The notes under the pieces were generated by a model. The model had not been told where the DNA came from and did no database searches. It was given only the letters and a program-made list of their open reading frames with translations. Shown one piece after another: positions 3,635 through 14,632 of a DNA stretch of 14,632 nucleotides; within the stretch, counting starts at the first letter, position 1, and each line of letters opens with the position of its first letter. The stretch comes from a virus. The stretch lies in the UHGV virus genome UHGV-0270538. The stretch is one strand, 5' to 3'. The translations under genes were made by a program, and so were the position numbers.

Positions 3635-4235
3635 TTCACTGTTACCGCCATCAGCCAGCAGTTTCATGCGTTGTGCCGAAGCCGTCGGAACACGCATTAC
3701 AGACATTCCGGTAGACCTCAATACGCTGTGGTCGCCGGATACCTGCCCGGTGCATCTGCTGCCTTATCTCGCCTGGGCGTTTTCCGTTGACCGCTGGGAT
3801 CGCAACTGGCCGGAAGAGACAAAGCGACAGGTAATTCGTGATGCATGGCTGATACACCGACACAAAGGGACCATCAGCGCACTGCGAAGAGCCGTGGAGC
3901 CTCTCGGCTACCTGATTGAAGTAAAGGAGTGGTGGCAACTCAACGAGGAGCCAGGAACATTTCGCATTGTTGTCGGAGTACTTGATCAGGGCATCACCGA
4001 TGAAATGTATCAGGAACTTGAGCGCCTTGTTGCGGATGCAAAACCAGTAAGTCGCCATCTGACGGGGCTGGCGATCAGCCTGAGTGTGAACGGAAAGATT
4101 TTCGTTGGTACGGGATGCTATCACGGCGATGCCCTGACGGTTTATCCCTACACCCCGGAGTCCATTATTGTCGAAGGGGATTATTTCCCTGCCCCGGCCA
4201 TTCATTTAATTGATAATCTAAGAGTAAACGCATGA
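3627..4235 (+). CDS. I: baseplate protein I (P2 gpI-like)
   Basis: ORF track starts at 3594, but homology to gpI begins at MSNSLLPP (ATG 3627) with GAAGGTGG SD 5 nt upstream; start overlaps J stop. Motifs LWSPDTCP, LAWAFSVDRWD, HKGTI, VEPLGY, ADAKPVSRHL. Confidence 0.88.
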   Translation: MSNSLLPPSASSFMRCAEAVGTRITDIPVDLNTLWSPDTCPVHLLPYLAWAFSVDRWDRNWPEETKRQVIRDAWLIHRHKGTISALRRAVEPLGYLIEVKEWWQLNEEPGTFRIVVGVLDQGITDEMYQELERLVADAKPVSRHLTGLAISLSVNGKIFVGTGCYHGDALTVYPYTPESIIVEGDYFPAPAIHLIDNLRVNA

Positions 4236-5839
4236 CAGTGAAATACTACGCCATTCTGACTAATCAGGGCGCAGCACGACTGGCTAACGCGACGATGCTC
4301 GGCAGTAAGCTGAATCTGACGCAAATGGCCGTTGGTGATGCAAATGGTGTGTTACCAACACCAGACCCTGCACAAACAAAACTGATTAACCAGAAACGCA
4401 TTGCACCGCTGAATCTTCTGAGTGTTGACCCTAACAATCAGAGCCAGATTATTGCGGAGCAAATCATCCCTGAAAACGAGGGAGGATTCTGGATCCGTGA
4501 GATTGGTCTTTATGATGATGAAGGTGTACTCATTGCGGTGGCAAACTGCCCGGAAACGTACAAACCGCAGTTGCAGGAAGGCAGTGGACGCACCCAGACT
4601 ATCCGCATGATTCTGGTTGTCACGAACACCGAAGCCATCACGCTGAAAATCGACCCGTCTGTGGTTCTGGCAACCCGCAAATATGTGGATGATAAAATCT
4701 CAGAGCACGAACAGTCACGACGTCACCCGGACGCCTCGCTGACCGCAAAAGGTTTTACTCAGTTAAGCAGTGCAATTAACAGTGAATCAGAAACACTGGC
4801 CGCAACACCGAAAGCAGTTAAGGCTGCATATGACCTGGCTGACGGGAAATATACCGCCCAGAACGCCACCACAACACAAAAAGGGATTGTTCAGCTCAGT
4901 AGCGCCACGAACAGCACGTCTGAAACGCTGGCAGCGACACCAAAAGCTGTTAAGGCGGTAATGGATGAAACGAGCAAGAAAGCACCATTAAACAGCCCGG
5001 CACTGACCGGAACGCCAACAACACCAACAGCGCCACAGGGGACTAATAGTACCCAGATCGCAAGCACGGCTTTCGTTATGGCCGCGATTGCCGCACTTGT
5101 AGATTCGTCACCTGATGCACTGAACACGCTGAACGAACTGGCTGCGGCGCTGGGCAATGACCCGAATTTTGCGACCACCATGACTAACGCGCTTGCGGGT
5201 AAGCAACCGAAGGATGCCACCCTGACGGCGCTGGCGGAGCTTGCTACATCAGCAGATAAACTCCCATATTTTACAGGAGCAGATCGTGCCGCGTTAACCG
5301 CGTTGACAAGTGTTGGACGTGCCATTCTTGGTAAAACCAGCACTCAGGGAGTTCTTGATTACCTTGGTTTGGGAGAAGGCTCTGTATTACCCGTTGGTGT
5401 GCCTGTTCCGTGGCCTTCAGCCACACTGCCAACAGGCTGGCTGAAATGCAACGGGGCGGCATTTTCTGCTGAAGAATACCCGGAACTGGCAAAGGCTTAC
5501 CCGACAAATATATTGCCTGATTTACGTGGTGAATTTATTCGTGGCTGGGATGACGGGCGCGGAGTGGACAGTAGCCGGACGTTGTTGTCGTGGCAAAAAG
5601 GCTCTTATCTGGTTCAGGAAGCCAATATATCACCCGACAGCGTGGTGCAGTTTTCGGTAAACGACATTGCCCTGCTGGGATGGGATAAAACTGAAACCAA
5701 TTCAGATATTCTCAGAGCGAAAAGTATACCTACAGAATATATCTGGAACCCAGTTCCAGTGGGAGCCTGGGGGATTCAGTATCTGGGTTACGCAAGGCCA
5801 CGTAACATTGCATTTAACTACATCGTAAGGGCTGCATGA
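4232..5839 (+). CDS. H: tail fibre protein H, constant N-terminal part fused to the currently expressed variable C-terminal cassette
   Basis: 535 aa; ATGA overlap with I stop; N-terminal two thirds strongly resemble P2 gpH, including the repeated QLSSA-NS-SETLAATPKAVK motif. After the crossover site (5352-5377) the C-terminus carries a tail-collar-type signature (GWLKCNGAAFS ... LPDLRGEFIRGWD). Confidence 0.9.
   Translation: MTVKYYAILTNQGAARLANATMLGSKLNLTQMAVGDANGVLPTPDPAQTKLINQKRIAPLNLLSVDPNNQSQIIAEQIIPENEGGFWIREIGLYDDEGVLIAVANCPETYKPQLQEGSGRTQTIRMILVVTNTEAITLKIDPSVVLATRKYVDDKISEHEQSRRHPDASLTAKGFTQLSSAINSESETLAATPKAVKAAYDLADGKYTAQNATTTQKGIVQLSSATNSTSETLAATPKAVKAVMDETSKKAPLNSPALTGTPTTPTAPQGTNSTQIASTAFVMAAIAALVDSSPDALNTLNELAAALGNDPNFATTMTNALAGKQPKDATLTALAELATSADKLPYFTGADRAALTALTSVGRAILGKTSTQGVLDYLGLGEGSVLPVGVPVPWPSATLPTGWLKCNGAAFSAEEYPELAKAYPTNILPDLRGEFIRGWDDGRGVDSSRTLLSWQKGSYLVQEANISPDSVVQFSVNDIALLGWDKTETNSDILRAKSIPTEYIWNPVPVGAWGIQYLGYARPRNIAFNYIVRAA
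5352..5377. repeat. invertase crossover site (gix/hix-like), left; inside H at the constant/variable junction
   Basis: ttcttgattaccttggtttgggagaa; resembles recalled hixL/gix (TTCTTGAAAACC-AA-GGTTTTTGATAA). Its distal 14 bp (5364-5377) form a perfect inverted repeat with 7303-7316. Confidence 0.65.
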
Positions 5840-6456
5840 TGAGCAAGAAAATCATGACTACAGCGGTGCTGAATGAATCGCGGCTGGCAACAGTTGCAGG
5901 AGAGGTTGTTGTCCACAGCTACGATAATAAGACGCGGGAATACCTTTGCACGTCAACCGAATATCTGGCTGTGGGCGTTGGCCTTCCTGCACATTCATGC
6001 ACTGATGCCCCCGGGGAAAGGCGGGCTGGTTATGTGATTTGCCGCACTGCTGACCTGACCGCGTGGGAGTATGTGCCGGACCATCGGGGTGAGACAGTCT
6101 ATAACACAGAAACCCGTGAGGCAGCAGAAATTACCACTCCGGGTGATTACCCTGAAAACACAACCACTGTCGCACCGTTAACGCCATACGATAAATGGGA
6201 TGGTGAGGAATGGGTGACCGATACAGATGCGCAACATCGTGCCGCTGTAGAAGCGGCAGAAACACAACGCCAGTCGCTGATTGATACTGCAATGGCTTCC
6301 ATTAGTCTGATTCAGCTGAAATTACAGGCCGGGCGGAAACTGACGCAGGCAGAAACAACCCGGCTTAACGCTGTGCTGGATTACATTGACGCGGTGACGG
6401 CAACAGATACCAGTACCGCGCCGGATATCAATTGGCCTGCTCCCCCGGAGGCGTAG
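5836..6456 (+). CDS. G: tail fibre assembly chaperone G (Tfa, Mu U-like), cognate to the expressed H cassette
   Basis: 206 aa; ATGA overlap with H stop; C-terminal Tfa signature (TSTAPDINWPAPPEA); lies inside the invertible segment. Confidence 0.85.
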   Translation: MMSKKIMTTAVLNESRLATVAGEVVVHSYDNKTREYLCTSTEYLAVGVGLPAHSCTDAPGERRAGYVICRTADLTAWEYVPDHRGETVYNTETREAAEITTPGDYPENTTTVAPLTPYDKWDGEEWVTDTDAQHRAAVEAAETQRQSLIDTAMASISLIQLKLQAGRKLTQAETTRLNAVLDYIDAVTATDTSTAPDINWPAPPEA

Positions 6457-6844
6457 GCCAGACGGGATTTGATGTATCAACGCGCATCAGCAAGACCCGG
6501 TATTTTTTCCATTCAGATAACGCGGCGGTTTCTTCTGCCGTCGCGATTTCCGCATCAAAAGCATCCTGTCTCCAGACTATTTCCTTATCAGCCATAGAAC
6601 GCAATACCGTTCTTTTCTGTTCAGCCTGAATAATCTGTTGTTCAGCGGAGAGTGGCGGGATATCAATCCACGCAGGATTACCATTTTTATCAGCCCCCAG
6701 CGTTTTGCCTTCTGGCGCTACGCCTGTGTAAATTGCCATTGTTTCATCATCAACATCAGCGCCATTTTCAGGCCATGAACCGGCGCTGATATATACCTCT
6801 TTTAGTGCTTTCGGATAGAAAGAGCCTTTATAAAATTTATTCAT
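6428..6844 (-). CDS. alternative tail fibre assembly chaperone G' (Tfa), silent in this orientation
   Basis: Minus-strand ORF 6428..6874; preferred start is ATG at 6844 (MNKFYKG...), 2 nt after the H' stop with a GGGG SD-like stretch upstream. C-terminal Tfa signature (WKKYRVLLMRVDTSNPVWPTPP). Converges on G with a 29-bp 3' overlap. Confidence 0.8.
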   Translation of the reverse strand: MNKFYKGSFYPKALKEVYISAGSWPENGADVDDETMAIYTGVAPEGKTLGADKNGNPAWIDIPPLSAEQQIIQAEQKRTVLRSMADKEIVWRQDAFDAEIATAEETAALSEWKKYRVLLMRVDTSNPVWPTPPGEQAN

Positions 6845-6846
6845 TC

Positions 6847-7316
6847 TTAATACCCCAGCGCGATAAAACAACAATCTTCGGTGCCCTCTCCGGATGGCGA
6901 CCAGTTCTGAATACTGATGTGCGTTCTGCTGGCAATACGCACATTCATCGCGGCATTGTAGCCAGATGTTCCACGGTTTCCGGTCGCAAACAAGCCTGCA
7001 TAGGGAAAAGCAAATGGTAAGGCATATCCAGCATCAGCTCCCTTTTGTGTTGCCACCGTTCCCCACTGCAACATAAGTTTCACCGGGTTTCCTGTCGTCG
7101 CAATGCATGGAATGTAGATGTAGCCATTACCTGACATCATTGACCTGAAGCTGTCTAAATCCAGTAACTTCGAGGCATTATCTGCTCCAACATCTCGTGT
7201 TGCAGCGGTCCCTAACTGGAGCGCATTTCGGAAGGCTGATACATCAGAAATATCAGATCCATTAGCCGATTTCTGCATAGCTCTGGAGGCTCTATTTATC
7301 GTTTCTCCCAAACCAA
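6847..7316 (-). CDS. alternative tail fibre C-terminal cassette H' (promoterless, no own start; expressed only after inversion)
   Basis: Minus-strand open frame running from the crossover site (7303-7328) to TAA at 6847-6849. It encodes ...GLGE at the site, the same junction peptide as H (LGLGE at 5366-5377). The ORF-track Met at 7356 lies upstream of the crossover site and is probably not used. Confidence 0.7.
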
Positions 7317-7328
7317 CGTTTAAGAAAA
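7303..7328. repeat. invertase crossover site (gix/hix-like), right; inverted copy 55 bp upstream of the invertase gene
   Basis: Plus strand ttctcccaaaccaacgtttaagaaaa; reverse complement ttttcttaaacg-tt-ggtttgggagaa shares the core and a 12-bp half-site exactly with the left site. Position just upstream of the invertase gene matches Mu gixR/gin. Confidence 0.65.
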
Positions 7329-7383: not shown

Positions 7384-7983
7384 ATGCTTATTGGCTATGT
7401 CCGCGTATCAACAAATGACCAGAATACAGAATTGCAGCGTAACGCGCTGGAGTGCGCAGGATGTGAACTGATTTTTGAAGATAAAATCAGCGGAACGAAA
7501 TCAGCCAGACCGGGATTGAAAAAACTGCTCAGAACGCTATCAGAAGGAGATACGCTGGTTGTCTGGAAGCTGGACAGACTGGGCAGAAGTATGAAACACC
7601 TGATCACGCTTATTGAGGAATTGCGGGAAAAAGGTGTTAATTTCCGTAGTCTGACGGACAGCATTGACACATCAACACCCATGGGGCGTTTCTTTTTTCA
7701 CGTCATGGGAGCTTTAGCCGAAATGGAACGTGAATTAATTGTAGAGCGTACACTGGCCGGGCTGGCAGCAGCACGCGCACAAGGACGCATTGGCGGACGT
7801 CGCCCGAAGTTGACAAAAGAACAACACGAGCAAATAGCGAGGCTGATTAAAAACGGTCATGACAGGAAACAACTGGCGATCATTTACGACATCGGCATAT
7901 CGACGATTTATCGTTATCACCCTGTAGGCGATATACAGGCTGAAGAAACAACCAGGCAGACTCAGGAAAATGAAAACCGCTAA
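7384..7983 (+). CDS. site-specific DNA invertase, serine recombinase of the Gin/Pin/Cin/Hin family
   Basis: 199 aa; N-terminus MLIGYVRVSTNDQNT with the catalytic Ser in VRVST; conserved VVWKLDRLGRSMKHL, SLTDSIDTS, MGRFFFHVMGALAEMERELI and a C-terminal HTH region (ISTIYRY). AGGGGA SD 6 nt before the ATG. Confidence 0.95.
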   Translation: MLIGYVRVSTNDQNTELQRNALECAGCELIFEDKISGTKSARPGLKKLLRTLSEGDTLVVWKLDRLGRSMKHLITLIEELREKGVNFRSLTDSIDTSTPMGRFFFHVMGALAEMERELIVERTLAGLAAARAQGRIGGRRPKLTKEQHEQIARLIKNGHDRKQLAIIYDIGISTIYRYHPVGDIQAEETTRQTQENENR

Positions 7984-8002
7984 TCTGACCATTAGCGGTT
8001 TT
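7973..8002. terminator. putative bidirectional intrinsic terminator between the convergent invertase and U genes
   Basis: Perfect 12-bp inverted repeat aaaaccgctaat / attagcggtttt with a 6-nt loop (ctgacc). The GC core stem is followed by a T-run on both strands. It overlaps the invertase stop codon (7981-7983) and ends 7 bp before the U stop. Confidence 0.5.
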
Positions 8003-8009
8003 GCGTTAA

Positions 8010-8504
8010 TCAAAACAGCCCTTTAACGGAGCTGGCCGCGCTGTTAAGGGATGATGTGACCTTATCTTTGAAGCCGGACAGCATATCACTGAACGATGAG
8101 GATTGCAGGCGCTCCCGCAAATCCTCATCACAGCGTTCAAGAGTCAGTGAAAATTCTATCTTTTTCGCCTTACCGTAGCGATCAAACTCGGAGCGGGTCG
8201 TATTCGTTCCGGTCAGGACATACATGCCGTAAATCTGCCCGACACCATCAATCAGAGGCCAGGGGCGTCCTGTATATGCCTGCGTGGTCAGCAACGAAAG
8301 CGACACTTCGCCACCTGTAATTTCAGGATAAAGCACGCCGGAAAGCACGATGCGATCATCACCTGCGCCGATATACTGCCAGCTTGCTGAACGGTTAACG
8401 CGTTCATTTTTCACATGCCGCCAGCTTTTGTTTTGCTGTAACTGCTGATGCGGCAATGTGCGCAGCTCAAAAACAAACATGCCGTAGATCATCATCATGG
8501 CCAT
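8010..8504 (-). CDS. U: tail protein U (sheath terminator, P2 gpU-like)
   Basis: 164 aa; MFVFELRTLPHQ, YPEITGGEVSL, WPLIDGVG and FSLTLER resemble gpU. GGAG lies only 2 nt before the first ATG, so the true start may be the third Met (8498). Confidence 0.85.
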   Translation of the reverse strand: MAMMMIYGMFVFELRTLPHQQLQQNKSWRHVKNERVNRSASWQYIGAGDDRIVLSGVLYPEITGGEVSLSLLTTQAYTGRPWPLIDGVGQIYGMYVLTGTNTTRSEFDRYGKAKKIEFSLTLERCDEDLRERLQSSSFSDMLSGFKDKVTSSLNSAASSVKGLF

Positions 8505-8510
8505 GACTCC

Positions 8511-11354
8511 TCAATCTTTATCGTAAAAACTGCCACGTCCGGCACGGTCGCGTCGTTCCAATTCTGCCCTGACCATTTCACCGACCAGTTTCGCCAGTTC
8601 GCGGGGATTCTGCGTAACAACGTTATGCAGATGAACATGAATTTCACCGCCAAATCCGGAGACAACAGGCTCCCGGTTACGGGAAGTTGCAGGAACTGAT
8701 GCCACTGGCGATCGTATGGCCTCCGCCACCGGGCGGGAGCTGGCCGCAACAACAGGGACCAGCGCCGGAGGCAGAGGAGTCGGGACCACGGGTGTGATGT
8801 TGATTGCGGAAGCAGGCTTACTGACCTGCGCAATCTTCCGCTCCTGCCACTCCCCACGAACAGCAAGTGCGCGGGGCAGATTCTTAAAGACAATATCGCC
8901 GGGGCCAATGCGTTTTTTCGTCTCATCAACCAGCTTACCTGTGTTATCAGCAATTTTGCTGAGTCTGCGTAGCGTACCGGTATTGCTGTCTGTGAGCGGT
9001 TTGTTGTCTTTGGGTTTATCACCTCCGGTGCCATTGCCATTTTCCACAGGCTTCGGCGGATTGATTTTCGCCAGGTCCCCCTGAAGCAAGGCAACCTTGT
9101 CCTGAAGAATGGCCGCACGCTGTGCGTCTTCGATTTTCTTACGCGCCCTTTCCGCTTCATCCGGAAGGACGCCAAGTTTTTCAAGTATCCACGCCAGCGT
9201 ATCCAGTAGCATTTTTGCAGGCGTCAGAACAAGTTGTAACGCACCGCCAAGAACGTTACCGAATATCTCGCCAGCACTGGTACATTTATCCAGCGTTTCC
9301 TTGCTGGACTCCATCGGTGACAACAGCGATTTAAACCAGTTAAACACCTGGCTGATCCCGCTTCCGATTGCGTCAAAAACAGGACCAAACCGTTCAAAGG
9401 TTTCGCGCAACGGGGTCAGCCTTTCCATAATCCCGCTGAACACCCCGGCAAAAAATGCCTTAATGGGTTCCCAGTATTTCCAGATGAGAACCGCCGCAGC
9501 CACAAACGCAGCAGCAATCAATCCAACCGGACTGAACAGCGCCCCGATAGCGCCTCCCAGCAAAGAAACAGAACCCGTCAGCATTCCCCACAGCGCAGGC
9601 AACACCCGGACGACATTCATTGACCGGGTAAGAATGTCAAAACCAAGACGCAGGGTGGCCAGCTTTCCGTAAAGCACCCCAATAACCAGCGACAACGAGC
9701 CAATCGTTGCAGTCATTGCCAGCAACGCACCGCCTGCTATCAGTAGCTGGCGCGTCAGTACCGGATGGGCCTGCGCCAGCGAGGTGATTTTTTCAAGCAC
9801 CCGCGTGAGCCACTGCGTGACAGAACGCAGCGGACCGTCAACCAGATCACTGATGCGAATACGAAGACCTTCCCATGCGCTGTCGAGATTTTTCAGGTCC
9901 CCATCAAGATTATCGGCCATTACTTTTGCAACGCGATCGGCCTCTCCCCTTGCCCCCTGCAATTCTCTGGTCAGTTTTTGCAGCTCTCCTGAACCAGCCG
10001 CCGCAACAAGCGTCTGTAAACCAACGAACGCCTCTTCTCCGGCGATGTCCTTGAAGAAGGAAATCTGGTCCACCTGTCCGTATTTTTGTGTCGCCTTATA
10101 GAGATCAAGCAGCACATCCTCCATCGGGCGCATTTTGCCTCTGGCGTCAGCAACTGACACCCCCAGCTCTTTCAGTGCATCAGCCGCAGCTTTTGGCGGT
10201 GATGCAAGGCGGGACAGACTTGCGCGCATGGCCGTACCAGCATCGCTTCCGCGAAGACCATTATTGGCAAGCATCCCGGCCATGGCCGCCGCTTCTTCAA
10301 GACTGATACCAAGTTTTGCGGCAACCGGACCGGTATACTTCATGGTTTCGCCCAGCGCGCGTAAATCAGTATTGGTCCGGGTGAATGCTGCTGTCAGCGT
10401 ATCGCCAACCCGGTCCATTTGATCGGCTGTCAGGTTGAACTGTGTGAGGATATTGGAGCCTATATCAGCCGTCTCGCCGAGTTCGACGCCACCTGCCAGC
10501 GCCATATTAAGAACACCGGGCAATGCGGCCTGAATGGCCTGCGGAGTAAAACCAGCCATTGCCAGAAAGCTCTGCCCACTGGCGGCATCACTCGCAGTAA
10601 ACTGTGTTTCAGAACCAAGTTTTAACGCCTGCTCACGCAGCGCCTTAAACTGCGGGCTGTTTTTGTCGATTCGCGTCAGTGCCTGAACGCGGGACATCTC
10701 TTTCCCGAACCCGATCGCAGGCTGCAAAAAACGCCCGGCAGCATAGCCGCCAGCCGCTGCCGCACCAATTGCCAGCGCACCACCTGTTTTCAGTTTTCCC
10801 GCGGTTTCCTGCGCGCGCGAATACCGCTCACGCGCCCGCGTTACACGCGCAAGCGCCTGCCGTTCGCGTTCAAGCTGGTTGTTGTACTGTTCGGTGCGTC
10901 TGATGGCCTGCTGGATGGTGTTATCGCTGCCTGTCAGGGAAATGCCGTGGCGTTTCAGCTCTCCGCCAAGCTCCCGCATTTTCTGAATTTCCCGTGTGCG
11001 CGATTCATTCAGGCGTTCAAGCCGGGTGCTTAACTGCTGCATCAGCTTTTGTTGTTTTTCGCTGAGCACTGTACCCGTGCGTTGTAACTGATTAAGGGCG
11101 TTAAGCTGGCGTCGTGCTTTCACGATACCCGCATCCGCTTTACTGACAGCGTCGCGGGCGCGCTCAAATGATCGCGCCTGACGCTCGAGATTTTTGATCG
11201 CCCCCTGCGTTCGCTGGATGGAGTCACCAAACTGCCCCATCAGGCGGCGGGCGTTTTCGGCAGGCCGGGTCAGCCTGTCAACGGCGCTGAAAGCGACCCG
11301 GATATCAAGAGTCTTCATTGTCTGCATTCCCGCTGCGAAGTGCCGCCCGCTCAC
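8511..11354 (-). CDS. T: tail tape measure protein T (P2 gpT-like)
   Basis: 947 aa, Ala/Gly/Leu-rich with coiled-coil N-terminal region and hydrophobic central segments; sits between E/E' and U. The GTG at 11354 is uncertain; in-frame ATGs at 11327 and 11318 are alternatives. Overlaps the end of E'. Confidence 0.9.
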   Translation of the reverse strand: MSGRHFAAGMQTMKTLDIRVAFSAVDRLTRPAENARRLMGQFGDSIQRTQGAIKNLERQARSFERARDAVSKADAGIVKARRQLNALNQLQRTGTVLSEKQQKLMQQLSTRLERLNESRTREIQKMRELGGELKRHGISLTGSDNTIQQAIRRTEQYNNQLERERQALARVTRARERYSRAQETAGKLKTGGALAIGAAAAGGYAAGRFLQPAIGFGKEMSRVQALTRIDKNSPQFKALREQALKLGSETQFTASDAASGQSFLAMAGFTPQAIQAALPGVLNMALAGGVELGETADIGSNILTQFNLTADQMDRVGDTLTAAFTRTNTDLRALGETMKYTGPVAAKLGISLEEAAAMAGMLANNGLRGSDAGTAMRASLSRLASPPKAAADALKELGVSVADARGKMRPMEDVLLDLYKATQKYGQVDQISFFKDIAGEEAFVGLQTLVAAAGSGELQKLTRELQGARGEADRVAKVMADNLDGDLKNLDSAWEGLRIRISDLVDGPLRSVTQWLTRVLEKITSLAQAHPVLTRQLLIAGGALLAMTATIGSLSLVIGVLYGKLATLRLGFDILTRSMNVVRVLPALWGMLTGSVSLLGGAIGALFSPVGLIAAAFVAAAVLIWKYWEPIKAFFAGVFSGIMERLTPLRETFERFGPVFDAIGSGISQVFNWFKSLLSPMESSKETLDKCTSAGEIFGNVLGGALQLVLTPAKMLLDTLAWILEKLGVLPDEAERARKKIEDAQRAAILQDKVALLQGDLAKINPPKPVENGNGTGGDKPKDNKPLTDSNTGTLRRLSKIADNTGKLVDETKKRIGPGDIVFKNLPRALAVRGEWQERKIAQVSKPASAINITPVVPTPLPPALVPVVAASSRPVAEAIRSPVASVPATSRNREPVVSGFGGEIHVHLHNVVTQNPRELAKLVGEMVRAELERRDRAGRGSFYDKD

Positions 11355-11834
11355 GCCAGCTAACCACTTCGCCGGGCGTCATCATGAAGATTTCGGCGGG
11401 CGACCAGTTAAAAATGGCGGCAATATCCGCCACAAAGTCTTCTATGTGCTCAAAGCACACAACCGTGATCAGGCTTCCGTCGCCTGTTCGCTCTTCCCGC
11501 CAGAGTCCGCACCGCTCAAAAAATTTACGGCAACCACACATAACTGAATAAAATCACGGGATGCCATTTTTTTGATCGTCACTTCATCCAGTCGTGGCGA
11601 GGTCACGCGTGACAGCAGCGTAAACATGGATTCCGCTTTCAGATTCAGCACATCAGACAGCGACAAATCTCGCAGAGATCCAGCCTGCTCAATAGCCCCG
11701 GTGATCTCCACATACGTGATTTTTTCGCCGCCTCGCTCAATTGGTTGGGTAAGTTTTACGCCACGCTCACTGGTTTCTTTCACAGTGTCAGTAACTACCG
11801 TGTTTTCGGTATCGATGTTTTTCGTCTCTTTCAT
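11305..11834 (-). CDS. E': tail assembly chaperone E+E' fusion made by programmed -1 ribosomal frameshift (about 176 aa)
   Basis: The -1 frame is open from 11553 down to TGA at 11305-11307. Slippery heptamer U-UUU-UUG at 11523..11517 on the coding strand, in frame as AAU-UUU-UUG (N-F-L). Same heptamer and gene position as P2 E/E'. Confidence 0.7.
11469..11834 (-). CDS. E: tail assembly chaperone E (P2 gpE-like; lambda G analogue)
   Basis: 121 aa, acidic; AAGGAG SD 8 nt upstream of ATG 11834; lies between FII and T and contains the T-TTT-TTG slippery site. Confidence 0.8.
   Translation of the reverse strand: MKETKNIDTENTVVTDTVKETSERGVKLTQPIERGGEKITYVEITGAIEQAGSLRDLSLSDVLNLKAESMFTLLSRVTSPRLDEVTIKKMASRDFIQLCVVAVNFLSGADSGGKSEQATEA
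11517..11523 (-). other. programmed -1 frameshift slippery heptamer TTTTTTG (E to E')
   Basis: Plus strand caaaaaa at 11517-11523; on the minus strand it reads T-TTT-TTG in the E frame, with an open -1 frame downstream. Confidence 0.75.
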
Positions 11835-11888
11835 CAGGAAACTCCTTTCAGTCAGAGGCGACGCACTGCGCCGCCTGCATATTACTTA

Positions 11889-12401
11889 TCAGCCAAGCCC
11901 GAGCGCGGAACGGATGCGATCGGGCACAATGTCCTTGCCGTCCTTCCGGTAGATGTGGTTCAACAGGTCGATTTCCCACAGCGGGCGATCGTTAACGCTC
12001 AGCTTGTAGTAGGTGTTTTTGACAGCGTAAGTGTGTGATGTGGCTTCGCCCTGTTTGGCCTCCCCCATATCAATTTCCGTCACACGCCCGCGCATCTCGA
12101 TTTCATACAGATCGCTTTCTGCATCGGTGTAGTATTCACCCGCAAAACGCAGCAGCGTGCTGTCAATCGTGCCGCCATATTTAAGGAACAGCGCACGAAC
12201 AGCTCCCCCCATGACAAAGCTCGCATCAAGCGCGGAGTCGTCCAGACCGAGATCAATACTTACCGCACCCATCATGCCACCACCCCGGTAGCTGTCGGTT
12301 TTGCGCGTCAGCTTAGGCAGAGTGACGGACGTCACCTTACCCACTTCGTTTTCACCATCCACAAACAGCGTAAAAAAGCGAAGATGTTTTGGTACAGCCA
12401 T
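11889..12401 (-). CDS. FII: tail tube protein FII (P2 gpFII-like)
   Basis: 170 aa; VTLPKLTRK, YRGGGM, IDLGLDD, RFAG and EIDMGEAKQGE resemble gpFII; GGGAGG SD; start overlaps FI stop by 1 nt (TGATG). Confidence 0.9.
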   Translation of the reverse strand: MAVPKHLRFFTLFVDGENEVGKVTSVTLPKLTRKTDSYRGGGMMGAVSIDLGLDDSALDASFVMGGAVRALFLKYGGTIDSTLLRFAGEYYTDAESDLYEIEMRGRVTEIDMGEAKQGEATSHTYAVKNTYYKLSVNDRPLWEIDLLNHIYRKDGKDIVPDRIRSALGLG

Positions 12402-13585
12402 CAGGCACCTCCCAGCACCGCAAATGCGGGACCAAAGAATTCATCAGTAAACGTCTGGTAAAGCTCCATGTCTTCCAGTGGCGGAACGGGCGTATATTTG
12501 TAGCGAATACGCACACGTCCCTGACGTAAATCCGTGGTGCCGTTATCCACCACGTCATACCAGCACTCCGCGCCAATCAGTTTCCCGGCAGTAACCAGCG
12601 AATCCAGTTTTGCCCTGATGGCACTGATAACATCCTTCACGTTCGCAGGCGTCAGTGGACTGTCGATGGTTTCAAACTGCGCTTCCGCAATTGAATCAGC
12701 CAGCACCTGTGCGGTTCGGGTATACACCTCAAAGATGTAGGCGTTCGTTTCCGGTGTGCGGTTGCCCCAGAAGCGGAACCCGTTACGACGAATAATGGTC
12801 GTGATTTCTTTGTTGTTGAGGCTGTTGGCATCACTGTCTTCGGCCTGTAACGACCAGAACACATGCCTCGACATCCCCAGCACATTTTTAACCGGAACGT
12901 TGGACAGCGATTTGTGCCAGCCCTGCTCATGGTCAATGTACGCACGAAGGCCGCACGCATAAGCAGGCGCGGGGAACGTTTCGTTTTTGCCACTTTTCGG
13001 GTTGTAGGCGATGAAGTCCGGCCATAAGAGCATCACCTCACGTTCGTTGAATTTCTGGCGGTAGGTAATTGCCTCAGCCATCGTGTTACAGTCATGACAT
13101 GAGGCATACACAAACGCGCGCAGTTTACCCGCAATCACGCACAGGGATTTTGTCACCGCCTCCGTGTCCAGCTCCGGCGCGGCCAGAATACGCGGACGGT
13201 ATCCGATGCTTTCATCCTGCTCTGCAACAAGCAGCGCATACATCCCCGTATAGCTGCCGTCAGATTCAGAACCACCGATAACCAGTTGATCCTGCGTCTT
13301 ACCGCCTTCTTCTTTGTGTTCAGCCACGCGAACGACGATCACTTTTGTGCTCACCTGGTCTGCAATAGCCTTAAGCGCACGATAAAGCGTCCCCGTAGTC
13401 CCGCATTTTCCCAGCACGTCATTGACGCGGGTCAGCAGTGTGGGCTTGTTCAGCGGGAACAGCTCCGCGTCCGCATCATCCGCCGTTGCCACGATACCGA
13501 TAACACTGGAATCAACATCATTAATCGCTGTTACCAGGTCGGTACTTTCCGTAACACGGGCACCATGAAAACGAGTTTCACTCAT
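12401..13585 (-). CDS. FI: contractile tail sheath protein FI (P2 gpFI-like)
   Basis: 394 aa; FPLNKP, KLRAFVY, YRQ-F, WPDF, DHEQGWHKSLSNV, IRRNGFRFWGNRT, YTRTAQV and YKYTPVPPLE match recalled gpFI; AAGGGG SD 8 nt before the ATG. Confidence 0.95.
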   Translation of the reverse strand: MSETRFHGARVTESTDLVTAINDVDSSVIGIVATADDADAELFPLNKPTLLTRVNDVLGKCGTTGTLYRALKAIADQVSTKVIVVRVAEHKEEGGKTQDQLVIGGSESDGSYTGMYALLVAEQDESIGYRPRILAAPELDTEAVTKSLCVIAGKLRAFVYASCHDCNTMAEAITYRQKFNEREVMLLWPDFIAYNPKSGKNETFPAPAYACGLRAYIDHEQGWHKSLSNVPVKNVLGMSRHVFWSLQAEDSDANSLNNKEITTIIRRNGFRFWGNRTPETNAYIFEVYTRTAQVLADSIAEAQFETIDSPLTPANVKDVISAIRAKLDSLVTAGKLIGAECWYDVVDNGTTDLRQGRVRIRYKYTPVPPLEDMELYQTFTDEFFGPAFAVLGGA

Positions 13586-13742
13586 AGCTTCAGCCCCTTG
13601 TATCCGTTAAATGATTCGGCAACAATCATCACCCACCACGCGCGTAATCTCACCCCTGCGCCGTTCTCCCGCCACGGCGACAACAAAAAGCAGTAACCCC
13701 CTATGCACGCACATGCGACCATGCCGCACAGGGAGGGAACAG

Positions 13743-14632
13743 ATGACCGATACCACCATGCAATTGCTCAGTCAGAGCACAGACCCCGTGAAAATGCCGG
13801 ATTTTGATATTCTCGCGGAGGGGGAAACACTGTCCGGCGTGGCAGAGCGCCTGATGAGCCTGTCACTGACCGACAACCGGGGATTTGACGCGGACCTGCT
13901 CACCATCACGCTGGATGATGCGGATGGTCAGTTGCAGCTACCGCCACGGGGCGCGCGCCTGACGGTTCTCATTGGCTGGAAAGGAGAACCGCTGACAGAA
14001 AAAGGCACTTACATTGTTGATGAAATCGCTCACGAAGGACCGCCGGACAGGCTGACTGTTTCAGCCAGAAGCGCAGATTTTCGGGATGAATTTAACGTTA
14101 AACGTGAGGTGTCCTGGCATGATGTGACCATTGAGCGTGTGGTATCCGCCATCGCTCACCGGTACGGTCTGAAACCGCAAATCAGCGAAATGCTGATGGA
14201 TATTGAAATCGACCACGCCGACCAGACCGAAGAAAGCGACATGTCCTTCCTTACGCGCATGGCGGAAATGCTGGGCGCAATCACTACGGTAAAAAGCAGT
14301 AATCTGTTATTCATCATGCCAGGCGGTGGCGTGAACGCACAGGGTCAGCCGTTGCCATCGTTCGCCATCACACGCAGCAGCGGCGATCGCCATCAGTTTC
14401 GCATTGCTGACCGCGAAGCGTATACGGGGGTACGCGCTTACTGGCTTGATCTTAATTACGGGAAAAAGAAAAAAGTCAGCGTGAAACGCCGCAAACCGCC
14501 AAAACCCAAAAAGGAGAAAAGCAGCAGCCGTGAAGGTGATTATATGGAAGGCGCGGAAGGCAATGTGTTTGTGTTACGCAAGACTTATCAGAACGAGCAG
14601 GCAGCAAGACGCGCAGCGGCGGCAAAGTGGCA
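13743..14632 (+). CDS. D: tail protein D (P2 gpD-like), 5' part; continues beyond the window
   Basis: Open frame from ATG 13743 (GGGAGGG SD 6 nt upstream) to the window end, 296 codons. Motifs SLSLTDNRGF, DDADGQ, RSADFR, SWHD, QTEESD, FLTRMAE, AYTGV, lysine-rich KKKKVSVKRRKPPKPKKEK and EGDYMEGAEGNVF match gpD. Absent from the ORF track only because no stop falls in the window. Confidence 0.9.
   Translation, partial: MTDTTMQLLSQSTDPVKMPDFDILAEGETLSGVAERLMSLSLTDNRGFDADLLTITLDDADGQLQLPPRGARLTVLIGWKGEPLTEKGTYIVDEIAHEGPPDRLTVSARSADFRDEFNVKREVSWHDVTIERVVSAIAHRYGLKPQISEMLMDIEIDHADQTEESDMSFLTRMAEMLGAITTVKSSNLLFIMPGGGVNAQGQPLPSFAITRSSGDRHQFRIADREAYTGVRAYWLDLNYGKKKKVSVKRRKPPKPKKEKSSSREGDYMEGAEGNVFVLRKTYQNEQAARRAAAAKW

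What the first reader, a model, noticed from the sequence alone, without database searches (positions are those of the whole stretch)
7973..8002. Bidirectional terminator hairpin overlapping the invertase stop, between convergent invertase and U
A perfect 12-bp inverted repeat with a 6-nt loop, bordered by T-tracts on both strands, sits across the invertase stop codon and 7 bp from the U stop. It would terminate both convergent transcripts. A tailored terminator at the junction argues that the convergent arrangement is a real, functional state rather than a scaffold error, although it could equally be the ordinary invertase terminator predating the inversion.
Basis: seen in the sequence. Interest (0 to 1): 0.35.

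Follow-up and report, generated by a model that had tools for sequence, protein, structure and literature searches.

The report
Terminator hairpin ending phage tail operon
The small stem-loop between the DNA-invertase gene and tail gene U is most likely an ordinary transcription terminator that belongs to the tail operon, in a common prophage family (P88-like) whose convergent gene layout is normal and not an assembly error or a recent inversion.

Summary
A perfect 12-bp inverted repeat with a 6-nt loop lies at 7973-8002. The invertase stop codon sits in its left arm and the U stop codon lies 7 bp beyond its right arm. Only 3 of 2000 simulated windows contain such a repeat. The window is the tail module of a P88-type (Xuanwuvirus/Gemsvirus) prophage. 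In this lineage the FI-FII-E-T-U operon natively runs leftward, converging on the baseplate/tail-fibre/invertase genes. About 600 complete E. coli genomes and plaque-forming phages (P88, PhiSM) share this layout. The hairpin travels with U, not with the invertase. It persists where the invertase is deleted, replaced by unrelated genes, or absent with G converging directly. It is missing downstream of the invertase in P2-type phages. Phages with 99-100% identical U carry at least five unrelated hairpins in the same slot, and distant genera have their own. Within the family the stem is nearly invariant and the loop varies. All five independent stem substitutions keep a G.U wobble on the U-sense RNA only. 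My verdict: it is the intrinsic terminator of the tail operon and is probably bidirectional. It is ordinary and of low novelty. No transcript data were available.

The parts
7973..8002 (.). Stem-loop with 12-bp perfect arms (7973-7984 / 7991-8002) and loop 7985-7990. The evolutionarily conserved helix is the inner 10 bp (7975-7984 / 7991-8000), and the GC-containing core is 7977-7984 / 7991-7998.
   Evidence: presence, energy, chance; conservation of the stem against a variable loop
7963..7976 (-). U-tract of the U-sense (minus-strand) transcript. After the core stem it reads TTTTCATTTTCCTG. On the + strand the same bases encode the A-rich last codons of the invertase (…E N E N R).
   Evidence: The tail stays T-rich in the type-A haplotypes although its sequence varies.
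7999..8009 (+). U-tract of the invertase-sense (plus-strand) transcript. After the core stem it reads TTTTGCGTTAA, followed directly by the U stop codon.
7384..7983 (+). Serine DNA invertase (199 aa; Resolvase + HTH_7 domains). Its last ~19 codons (7925-7980) are a lineage-specific tail that runs into the hairpin.
   Evidence: Homology to the P1-like phage invertases stops at ~7927, and the PhiR44_2 remnant starts at ~7925.
8010..8504 (-). gpU (P2 GpU family), the last gene of the leftward tail operon
   Evidence: (P88 annotation)
8511..13585 (-). Rest of the leftward tail operon: T (8511-11354), E/E' (11469-11834 plus extension), FII (11889-12401) and FI (12401-13585). The genes are tightly packed, so U is the operon's 3' end.
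13586..13742 (.). Divergent intergenic region between FI (leftward) and D (rightward, starting at 13743). It is the presumed site of the promoter that drives the FI-U transcript ending at the hairpin.
   Evidence: The promoter itself was not identified.
5352..5377 (.). Left crossover site of the invertible tail-fibre segment, a Hin/Gin-type 26-bp site (reverse complement TTCTCCCAAACC-AA-GGTAATCAAGAA). It is listed to show that the invertase's real sites lie elsewhere.
7303..7328 (.). Right crossover site (TTCTCCCAAACC-AA-CGTTTAAGAAAA), inside the 5' part of the alternative H' segment and 645 bp upstream of the hairpin

Best explanation
The palindrome at 7973-8002 is the Rho-independent terminator that ends the leftward late tail operon FI-FII-E/E'-T-U of a P88-type prophage. 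RNA polymerase coming from the FI side transcribes the U stop codon (8012-8010). About 11 nt later it transcribes the GC-based stem CCGCUAAU-N6-AUUAGCGG, followed by UUUUCAUUUU, and is released there. This keeps strong late transcription from running antisense into the invertase gene and on into the invertible tail-fibre segment. The element has an A-tract on one side and a T-tract on the other, so the same DNA also encodes hairpin plus UUUUGCGUU for rightward transcripts. These are the invertase mRNA and any read-through from the R-S-V-W-J-I-H-G operon. It therefore probably works as a bidirectional terminator separating two convergent late transcription units. Shown here: the structure, its position, its linkage to U, its conservation pattern and its positional equivalents in relatives. 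Inferred: actual termination, its efficiency in each direction, and the insulating role.
For: (1) Anatomy. The stem has 8-12 bp with 4 G-C pairs at its base and a 6-nt loop. The core hairpin alone folds at -9 to -11 kcal/mol and the full stem at -13.6 to -15. The ten bases after the core stem hold 8 T on the U-sense strand and 6 T on the other. The site is listed by the terminator scan. (2) Position. It lies right after the last gene of a tightly packed five-gene operon. (3) Linkage to U. The same hairpin sits next to the U stop whether the convergent neighbour is an invertase with any of three C-termini, an invertase remnant, G, or unrelated genes. It was found only next to U, apart from one unrelated look-alike. 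(4) Positional conservation with sequence turnover. Phages with 99-100% identical U carry at least five unrelated stem-loops 7-13 nt after the U stop. Types B and C have a T-rich tail on the U-sense strand only. Enterobacter, Trabulsiella, Pantoea, Morganella, Providencia and Xenorhabdus relatives each have their own GC hairpin plus T run at that spot, several of them again facing a convergent invertase. Where D follows U co-directionally (Halomonas, Acinetobacter, Idiomarina, Chitinimonas) no such hairpin was seen in the 100 nt after the stop. (5) Constraint pattern within the family. In 36 haplotypes only 2 of 16 core stem positions vary, against 5 of 6 loop positions and all 3 positions just upstream. 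(6) Strand-specific signal. There are five independent stem substitutions at four pairs, taken from the U-anchored samples plus a census that was exhaustive for five pairs in IMG/VR. All five are C>T or A>G on the U-sense strand, so they give G.U there and A.C on the other strand. This gives 208/208 against 203/208 core cells paired. The consensus fold is -13.9 kcal/mol on the U-sense strand against -7.5 on the other. The one-sided binomial p is 0.03. (7) Bidirectional terminators between convergent genes are a documented, prevalent class in E. coli.
Against: No transcript 3'-end data exist for this element, so function is inferred. No compensatory (double) substitutions were seen, so there is no true covariation, and the column-shuffle control is uninformative. 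The wobble asymmetry rests on five events. The upper half of the stem is A-U only, and the + strand U-tract is interrupted after four U. On the + strand the invertase stop codon lies inside the 5' arm, so a terminating ribosome would cover part of the hairpin. From my own knowledge, translation that ends very close to a terminator hairpin can lower termination efficiency. One of the alternative hairpins at the same slot (type D) has no T-rich tail on either strand, so not every occupant of the slot looks like a canonical terminator.
Confidence: 0.75

Rival explanations
1. The element is a unidirectional terminator. It ends the U operon only. Rightward (invertase-sense) transcripts are not efficiently stopped by it and end by other means, such as Rho, collision with leftward polymerases or decay. 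The palindromic A/T flanks are then a by-product.
For: All five stem substitutions preserve pairing only on the U-sense RNA. The U-sense T-tract is richer, 8 against 6 of 10. Alternative hairpin types B and C at the same slot have T tails on the U-sense strand only. The invertase stop codon wanders across the hairpin (left arm, before the stem, in the loop), which suggests no tuning for invertase-sense termination.
Against: A4 upstream and TT downstream of the core are invariant in all 36 type-A haplotypes. The invertase-sense tail holds 6-8 T of 10 in the four type-A representatives scored. In L139 and L145 the late gene G converges within ~21 nt of this hairpin with no other terminator-like structure seen in between. 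Many relatives have clearly symmetric A-tract/T-tract hairpins here (Trabulsiella, Pantoea).
Confidence: 0.2
2. The element is a collision-type bidirectional terminator. The hairpin mainly pauses polymerases from both sides so that head-on collisions at a fixed point terminate both transcripts, as proposed for E. coli convergent gene pairs, and it does not act as a classical intrinsic terminator.
For: The gene pair is convergent with a single shared hairpin. This mechanism has been described for E. coli.
Against: The described class is said not to resemble intrinsic terminators. This element has the classical GC-base stem plus U-tract, and it is kept in Chuche, where the downstream genes are co-directional with U and not convergent.
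Confidence: 0.08
3. It is the invertase gene's own terminator, inherited from a P2-like ancestor and placed next to U by an inversion of the FI-U block.
For: The invertase stop codon overlaps the stem in this window.
Against: The hairpin is retained with U when the invertase is deleted or absent, and when G is the neighbour. It is absent after the related invertases of pro483 and Fels-2. Homology with other invertase genes ends ~55 nt before the stop. The layout is lineage-wide, with no sign of a recent inversion.
Confidence: 0.03
4. It is a DNA-level site: a binding palindrome for a dimeric protein, a pseudo-crossover site for the invertase, or a recombination anchor for module exchange.
For: The palindrome is perfect and contains AAACC/GGTTT, which is reminiscent of Hin/Gin half-sites. 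Homology breakpoints between phages fall within ~10 nt of it (Chuche), and one deletion ends inside it (L337).
Against: In real crossover sites AAACC and GGTTT face each other across a 2-bp core. Here they are 18 bp apart at the outer ends, and the true sites are at 5352-5377 and 7303-7328. The spacer (loop) sequence is free to vary, and the substitutions follow RNA wobble rules on one strand, which a DNA-binding site would not produce. Unrelated hairpins substitute for it in the same slot.
Confidence: 0.04

Closest known systems
Rho-independent (intrinsic) terminators, in particular bidirectional ones shared by convergent genes in E. coli
   Same: A stem with G-C pairs at its base, a short loop, a U-tract after the stem and a mirrored A-tract before it. 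It is placed between two convergent stop codons and serves as the end of an operon.
   Different: The stem is half A-U. One of the two stop codons lies inside the stem. Activity was not measured. The comparative signal favours one direction (U-sense).
Late transcription units of phage P2 (the V-W-J-I-H-G and FI-FII-E-T-U-D operons; own knowledge of P2 biology)
   Same: The same gene families occur in the same internal order.
   Different: In P88-type phages the FI-U block is transcribed towards the tail-fibre operon, and D is split off and diverges from FI. U is therefore an operon end and needs a terminator, which it does not where D follows U. No TGT-N12-ACA dyad, the P2 Ogr-type late-promoter motif as I recall it, occurs in the FI/D region.
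Hin/Gin/Cin/Pin crossover sites (hix, gix, cix, pix)
   Same: It contains AAACC and GGTTT and lies next to an invertase gene.
   Different: The geometry is wrong: the motifs are at the outer ends, 18 bp apart, and not flanking a 2-bp core. The genuine sites of this invertase are found elsewhere in the window.
Terminators that bound cargo ('moron') insertion sites in temperate phages (own knowledge, e.g. lambdoid morons)
   Same: In relatives the slot beyond the hairpin holds varying cargo: acyltransferases, glycosyltransferases and an IS200.
   Different: In this window the neighbour is the invertase/tail-fibre cassette and not a moron. A role as a hotspot boundary is inferred only.

Membership tests
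Intrinsic (Rho-independent) terminator | Stable stem-loop with G-C pairs at the base and a short loop (3-8 nt) | tested here: met
   12-bp stem (4 G-C pairs at the base of the 8-bp core) and 6-nt loop. Energies are -15.6 and -16.9 kcal/mol in context and -10.6 and -9.2 for the core alone.
Intrinsic (Rho-independent) terminator | U-rich tract immediately 3' of the stem | tested here: met
   After the core stem: TTTTCATTTT on the U-sense strand (8/10) and TTTTGCGTTA on the invertase-sense strand (6/10). The generic scan, which counts the full 12-bp stem, lists the - strand only.
Intrinsic (Rho-independent) terminator | Located just downstream of the last stop codon of a transcription unit | tested here: met
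   7 bp after the U stop. U is the last gene of the packed FI-U operon.
Intrinsic (Rho-independent) terminator | RNA-level constraint on pairing across relatives | tested here: inconclusive
   The stem is nearly invariant, the loop is variable, and 5 of 5 substitutions are wobble-compatible on the U-sense strand. There are no compensatory double changes, and p is only ~0.03.
Intrinsic (Rho-independent) terminator | Transcript 3' ends and polymerase release at the U-tract | not testable with these tools
Bidirectional terminator of a convergent gene pair | One hairpin between two convergent stop codons, with an A-tract on one side and a T-tract on the other | tested here: met
   The invertase stop is inside the left arm and the U stop is 7 bp from the right arm. 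A4 and the first TT are invariant in 36 haplotypes.
Bidirectional terminator of a convergent gene pair | Termination demonstrated on both strands | not testable with these tools
   The comparative signal supports the U-sense strand more strongly than the invertase-sense strand.
Hin/Gin-type crossover site | 26-bp site made of two 12-bp half-sites ending in AAACC, facing each other across a 2-bp core and present as an inverted pair flanking the invertible segment | tested here: not met
   Here AAACC and GGTTT are 18 bp apart at the outer ends. The true pair is at 5352-5377 and 7303-7328.
Dispersed palindromic repeat (REP-like) | Many copies per genome in unrelated contexts | tested here: not met
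   In all fetched loci the element occurs only next to the 3' end of U, except for one unrelated look-alike (L219). There is a median of one place per E. coli genome that has it.
Known RNA family (Rfam) | Match to a curated covariance model | tested here: not met
   No Rfam family reaches its gathering score anywhere in the window.

The most novel reading that the evidence does not exclude
The U-side hairpin is more than a terminator. It may be the fixed boundary of a cargo-exchange hotspot in P88-type phages. Tail-fibre inversion cassettes, LPS-modifying acyl- and glycosyltransferases and IS elements are swapped in and out right beside it. Incoming genes such as the invertase then acquire their C-terminal codons and stop codon from the terminator flank. 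In the window-type lineage these codons are lineage-specific, and in all three lineages the ORF ends at the hairpin. The one-strand (U-sense) selection would then also mean that invertase mRNA ends and invertase levels are set by leakage or collision with late tail transcription. That would couple tail-fibre switching to the lytic programme.
Probability: 0.15. Interest if true: 0.35.

Novelty: new member of a known kind. Interest (0 to 1): 0.12.

Why it matters
It matters little beyond annotation. It settles that the convergent invertase/U junction in this window is native architecture, so downstream analyses should not treat it as a misassembly or as an invertase-mediated mega-inversion. It gives a well-supported operon boundary for a prophage family present in about 12% of complete E. 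coli genomes. It also offers a compact natural terminator that could be tested as a bidirectional part. The strand-specific wobble pattern is a small worked example of inferring which strand of a palindromic terminator is under selection.

Tried and rejected
(1) Rfam scan of the whole window found nothing. (2) Covariation statistics were uninformative. There are no double substitutions, and the column-shuffle control cannot discriminate because only one side of a pair ever varies. (3) I tested a pseudo-gix/hix reading of the palindrome and rejected it on geometry and because the real sites were found elsewhere. (4) I searched for P2 Ogr-type TGT-N12-ACA dyads to locate the late promoter of the FI-U operon. 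None lies in the FI/D region, and there are only 2 in the window against 4 expected. The sigma-70 scan was at background, 9 found against 9.3 expected. The promoter that feeds the terminator is therefore not identified. (5) The first pattern scan (one arm plus TT) returned mostly chance hits: 95 of 120 loci are unrelated. The metagenome scan anchored on the U 3' end gave 31 relevant loci of 120. Pairs 6-8 are known only from the 36 sampled haplotypes, where they are invariant. (7) The literature search found no description of this terminator, and the P88 paper mentions no terminator or invertase.

Full report
OBSERVATION. The arms are 7973-7984 (AAAACCGCTAAT) and 7991-8002 (ATTAGCGGTTTT), with 12 of 12 bases complementary and the 6-nt loop CTGACC. 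The 199-aa ORF at 7384-7983 is a serine DNA invertase (Resolvase + HTH_7 domains), and its TAA at 7981-7983 lies in the left arm. The minus-strand ORF at 8010-8504 is a P2 GpU-family protein whose stop is at 8010-8012, 7 bp from the right arm. As RNA the region folds at -16.9 kcal/mol on the + strand (z = -4.6) and -15.6 on the - strand (z = -4.2), and none of 200 shuffles folds as well. A perfect 12-bp inverted repeat with a 3-8 nt loop arose in 3 of 2000 Markov-simulated windows. The only inexact point concerns the 'T-tracts'. They are the outer four pairs of the stem itself. Outside the 12-bp stem the + strand reads GCGTTAAT, so the generic scan lists the site on the minus strand only. Counting from the GC-containing core stem, the next ten bases hold 8 T (U-sense) and 6 T (invertase-sense).

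CONTEXT. Pfam assigns the whole window to a P2-like tail module. On the + strand lie R (714-1181), S, V, W, J, I, H (4232-5839) and G (5836-6456). G' and the alternative H' segment follow on the minus strand, then the invertase on the + strand. U, T, E, FII and FI lie on the minus strand (8010-13585), and D starts on the + strand at 13743. The crossover sites of the invertible tail-fibre segment are Hin/Gin-type 26-mers at 5352-5377 and 7303-7328. They are unrelated to the hairpin.

THE LAYOUT IS NATIVE. The invertase/U/T junction is matched over at least 80% of a 1.3-kb query in 619 of 5426 complete E. coli genomes. The 86-bp hairpin region is matched over at least 80% of its length in 599 genomes, and at all in 628, including UTI89 and O55:H7 CB9615. 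The same order and orientation are annotated in phages P88 and P884B11 (Xuanwuvirus), 500465-2 (Gemsvirus) and Shae_phiSM. In P88, D also diverges from FI. P88 is inducible and forms plaques (PMC5285337). PhiSM is described as spontaneously active (PMC6456863). This is simply how this branch of the Peduoviridae is organised.

WHOSE HAIRPIN IS IT? The core CCGCTAAT-N6-ATTAGCGG is present in all those phages. It stays beside the U stop codon in each of these cases:
- PhiR44_2, where the invertase and the G'/H' genes are gone and only ~60 nt of the invertase 3' end remain.
- Chuche, which has no invertase at all. Homology with the window starts ~9 nt before the hairpin, and the genes beyond it are a hypothetical protein and a glycosyltransferase co-directional with U.
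- L067 and L086, which carry invertase remnants.
- L139, L145 and L115, where the tail-fibre assembly gene G converges directly.
Conversely, pro483 and Fels-2 have related invertases followed co-directionally by FI, and they have no such hairpin. Homology of the window's invertase gene to those of P1-like phages stops at ~7927, about 55 nt before the stop. The invertase ORF ends at the hairpin in three different ways: TAA in the left arm (this window), TAA just before the core stem (P88, 500465-2), and TGA in the loop in another reading frame (L214, L244). The hairpin is therefore the constant feature and belongs with U. The overlap with the invertase stop is incidental.

POSITIONAL CONSERVATION. 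Among IMG/VR contigs whose U protein is 99-100% identical to the window's, at least five unrelated stem-loops (types A, B, C, D and F) begin 7-13 nt after the U stop. All fold stably, between about -16 and -30 kcal/mol over the 62-nt junction. Types B and C have a T-rich tail on the U-sense strand only (6-7 of 10, against 3 of 10 on the other strand). Type D has none on either strand. U relatives at 55-75% identity in Enterobacter, Trabulsiella, Pantoea, Morganella, Providencia and Xenorhabdus each carry their own GC hairpin plus T run right after the stop. Several of them again face a convergent invertase. In Halomonas, Acinetobacter, Idiomarina and Chitinimonas, D follows U directly, and no such hairpin was seen in the 100 nt after the stop. 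A structure that is kept in position while its sequence is replaced, and that is present where U ends a transcription unit, is what a terminator should look like.

CONSTRAINT WITHIN THE FAMILY. I collected 36 distinct junction haplotypes of the window type, anchored on the U 3' end so that the hairpin itself did not bias the sample. In these, 2 of 16 core stem positions vary, against 5 of 6 loop positions and all 3 positions just upstream. The four A's and the first two T's are invariant. The rest of the tail varies but stays T-rich on the U-sense strand. The second-outermost A-U pair is often broken, so the conserved helix is 10 bp. There are no compensatory double substitutions, so there is no formal covariation.

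STRAND ASYMMETRY. Every stem substitution is a C>T or A>G change on the U-sense strand. I ran a census that forced a non-consensus base at each of core pairs 1-5, searching both strands, and it was exhaustive for IMG/VR. It found only such changes next to U. Together with L006 this gives five independent events at four pairs. All five give G.U on the U-sense RNA and A.C on the invertase-sense RNA. The counts are 208/208 against 203/208 core cells paired, and the consensus fold is -13.9 against -7.5 kcal/mol. Under a 50:50 null this gives p = 0.03 one-sided. That is suggestive and not conclusive. It indicates that the RNA of the tail operon is the selected structure.

MECHANISM. The best-supported reading is an intrinsic terminator for the FI-U late operon. 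Its symmetric A/T flanks probably also stop rightward transcripts, namely the invertase mRNA and read-through from the R-to-G operon. It would thus insulate two convergent late units from each other, a known and prevalent arrangement in E. coli. The main rival is that it works in the U direction only. The invertase stop inside the stem, the drifting ORF end, the weaker + strand U-tract and the wobble asymmetry all point that way. The invariant A-tract, and the cases where G converges on this hairpin with no other terminator-like structure seen in between, argue for real two-way use. A DNA-site reading (pseudo-crossover site or protein operator) is disfavoured by the geometry, the free loop sequence, the RNA-type substitutions and the replacement by unrelated hairpins. 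The element is not a dispersed repeat and matches no Rfam family.

LIMITS. No expression data were available, so termination on either strand is inferred. The promoter of the FI-U operon was not identified. The sampled loci overlap between searches, so counts of loci are not counts of independent phages; I used distinct haplotypes and lineage context to count events.

VERDICT. The element is a terminator-type hairpin at a genuine convergent junction. It is the tail operon's terminator, not one tailored to the invertase or inherited with it, and no inversion needs explaining. It is an ordinary feature and a new, unannotated member of a well-known kind.

Noticed in passing
window 5352-5377 and 7303-7328 (segment ~5378-7302): A ~1.95-kb invertible tail-fibre segment is bounded by Hin/Gin-type 26-bp sites (TTCTCCCAAACC-AA-...). 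It would swap the C-terminal ~155 residues of H together with the assembly gene G for the alternative H'/G' set.
   Followed up: partly
window 6428-6456: The convergent tail-fibre assembly genes G (+) and G' (-) overlap by 29 bp at their 3' ends. The same 29-bp overlap is annotated in 500465-2 and pro483.
   Followed up: no
window 7925-7983; L001, L002, L214, L244: The invertase has lineage-specific C-terminal tails (…ENENR, …SQKTK, …KKPLI) encoded by A-rich codons, which on the other strand form the U-tract of the U terminator. In the window-type lineage the conserved invertase core ends at ~7924.
   Followed up: partly
L105, L071/L076, L065/L087, L061 (Chuche), L142: the 0.7-1.5 kb beyond the U-side hairpin: In relatives the junction holds variable cargo: hexapeptide-repeat acyltransferases, a family-9 glycosyltransferase, the annotated Chuche glycosyltransferase (no Pfam hit here) and an IS200-type transposase inserted right after the hairpin. 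This looks like a lysogenic-conversion or moron hotspot.
   Followed up: partly
L337 (IMG/VR contig): The window-type hairpin is truncated inside its right arm and fused to a second strong hairpin (AAGGCCCGATAGCGGGCCTT, the terminator after G in PhiR44_2). This is a deletion endpoint inside the terminator.
   Followed up: no
window 13586-13742: The 157-bp divergent region between FI and D must hold the late promoters. It contains no P2 Ogr-type TGT-N12-ACA dyad and no sigma-70-like match, so late activation in P88-type phages may use a different signal.
   Followed up: partly
window 11414-11433 (minus strand): A terminator-like hairpin (GTGGCGGATATTGCCGCCAT + TTTTTAA) lies between the E stop and the T start, inside the stretch annotated in P88 as the small E'-type ORF. 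It could relate to the E/E' frameshift region or to internal attenuation of the operon.
   Followed up: no
L006 (NZ_JBQPOM010000071.1, 'Vagococcus sp. WN89Y'): A contig labelled as a Firmicute carries a U gene 97% identical to this enterobacterial prophage, together with the same hairpin and a 95%-identical H N-terminus. This is probably contamination or mislabelling of the assembly.
   Followed up: no
L032 (Morganella morganii), just after the U terminator: An 8-nt tandem repeat (CCCTTCTG, at least 6 copies) lies directly after the hairpin and T run.
   Followed up: no
PMC6456863 (C. rodentium prophage CRPr20): The paper reports that the large deletion in the PhiSM-like remnant CRPr20 lies at the juncture of the invertase gene and a recombinase gene. 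This is consistent with the invertase/U junction being a rearrangement breakpoint.
   Followed up: no
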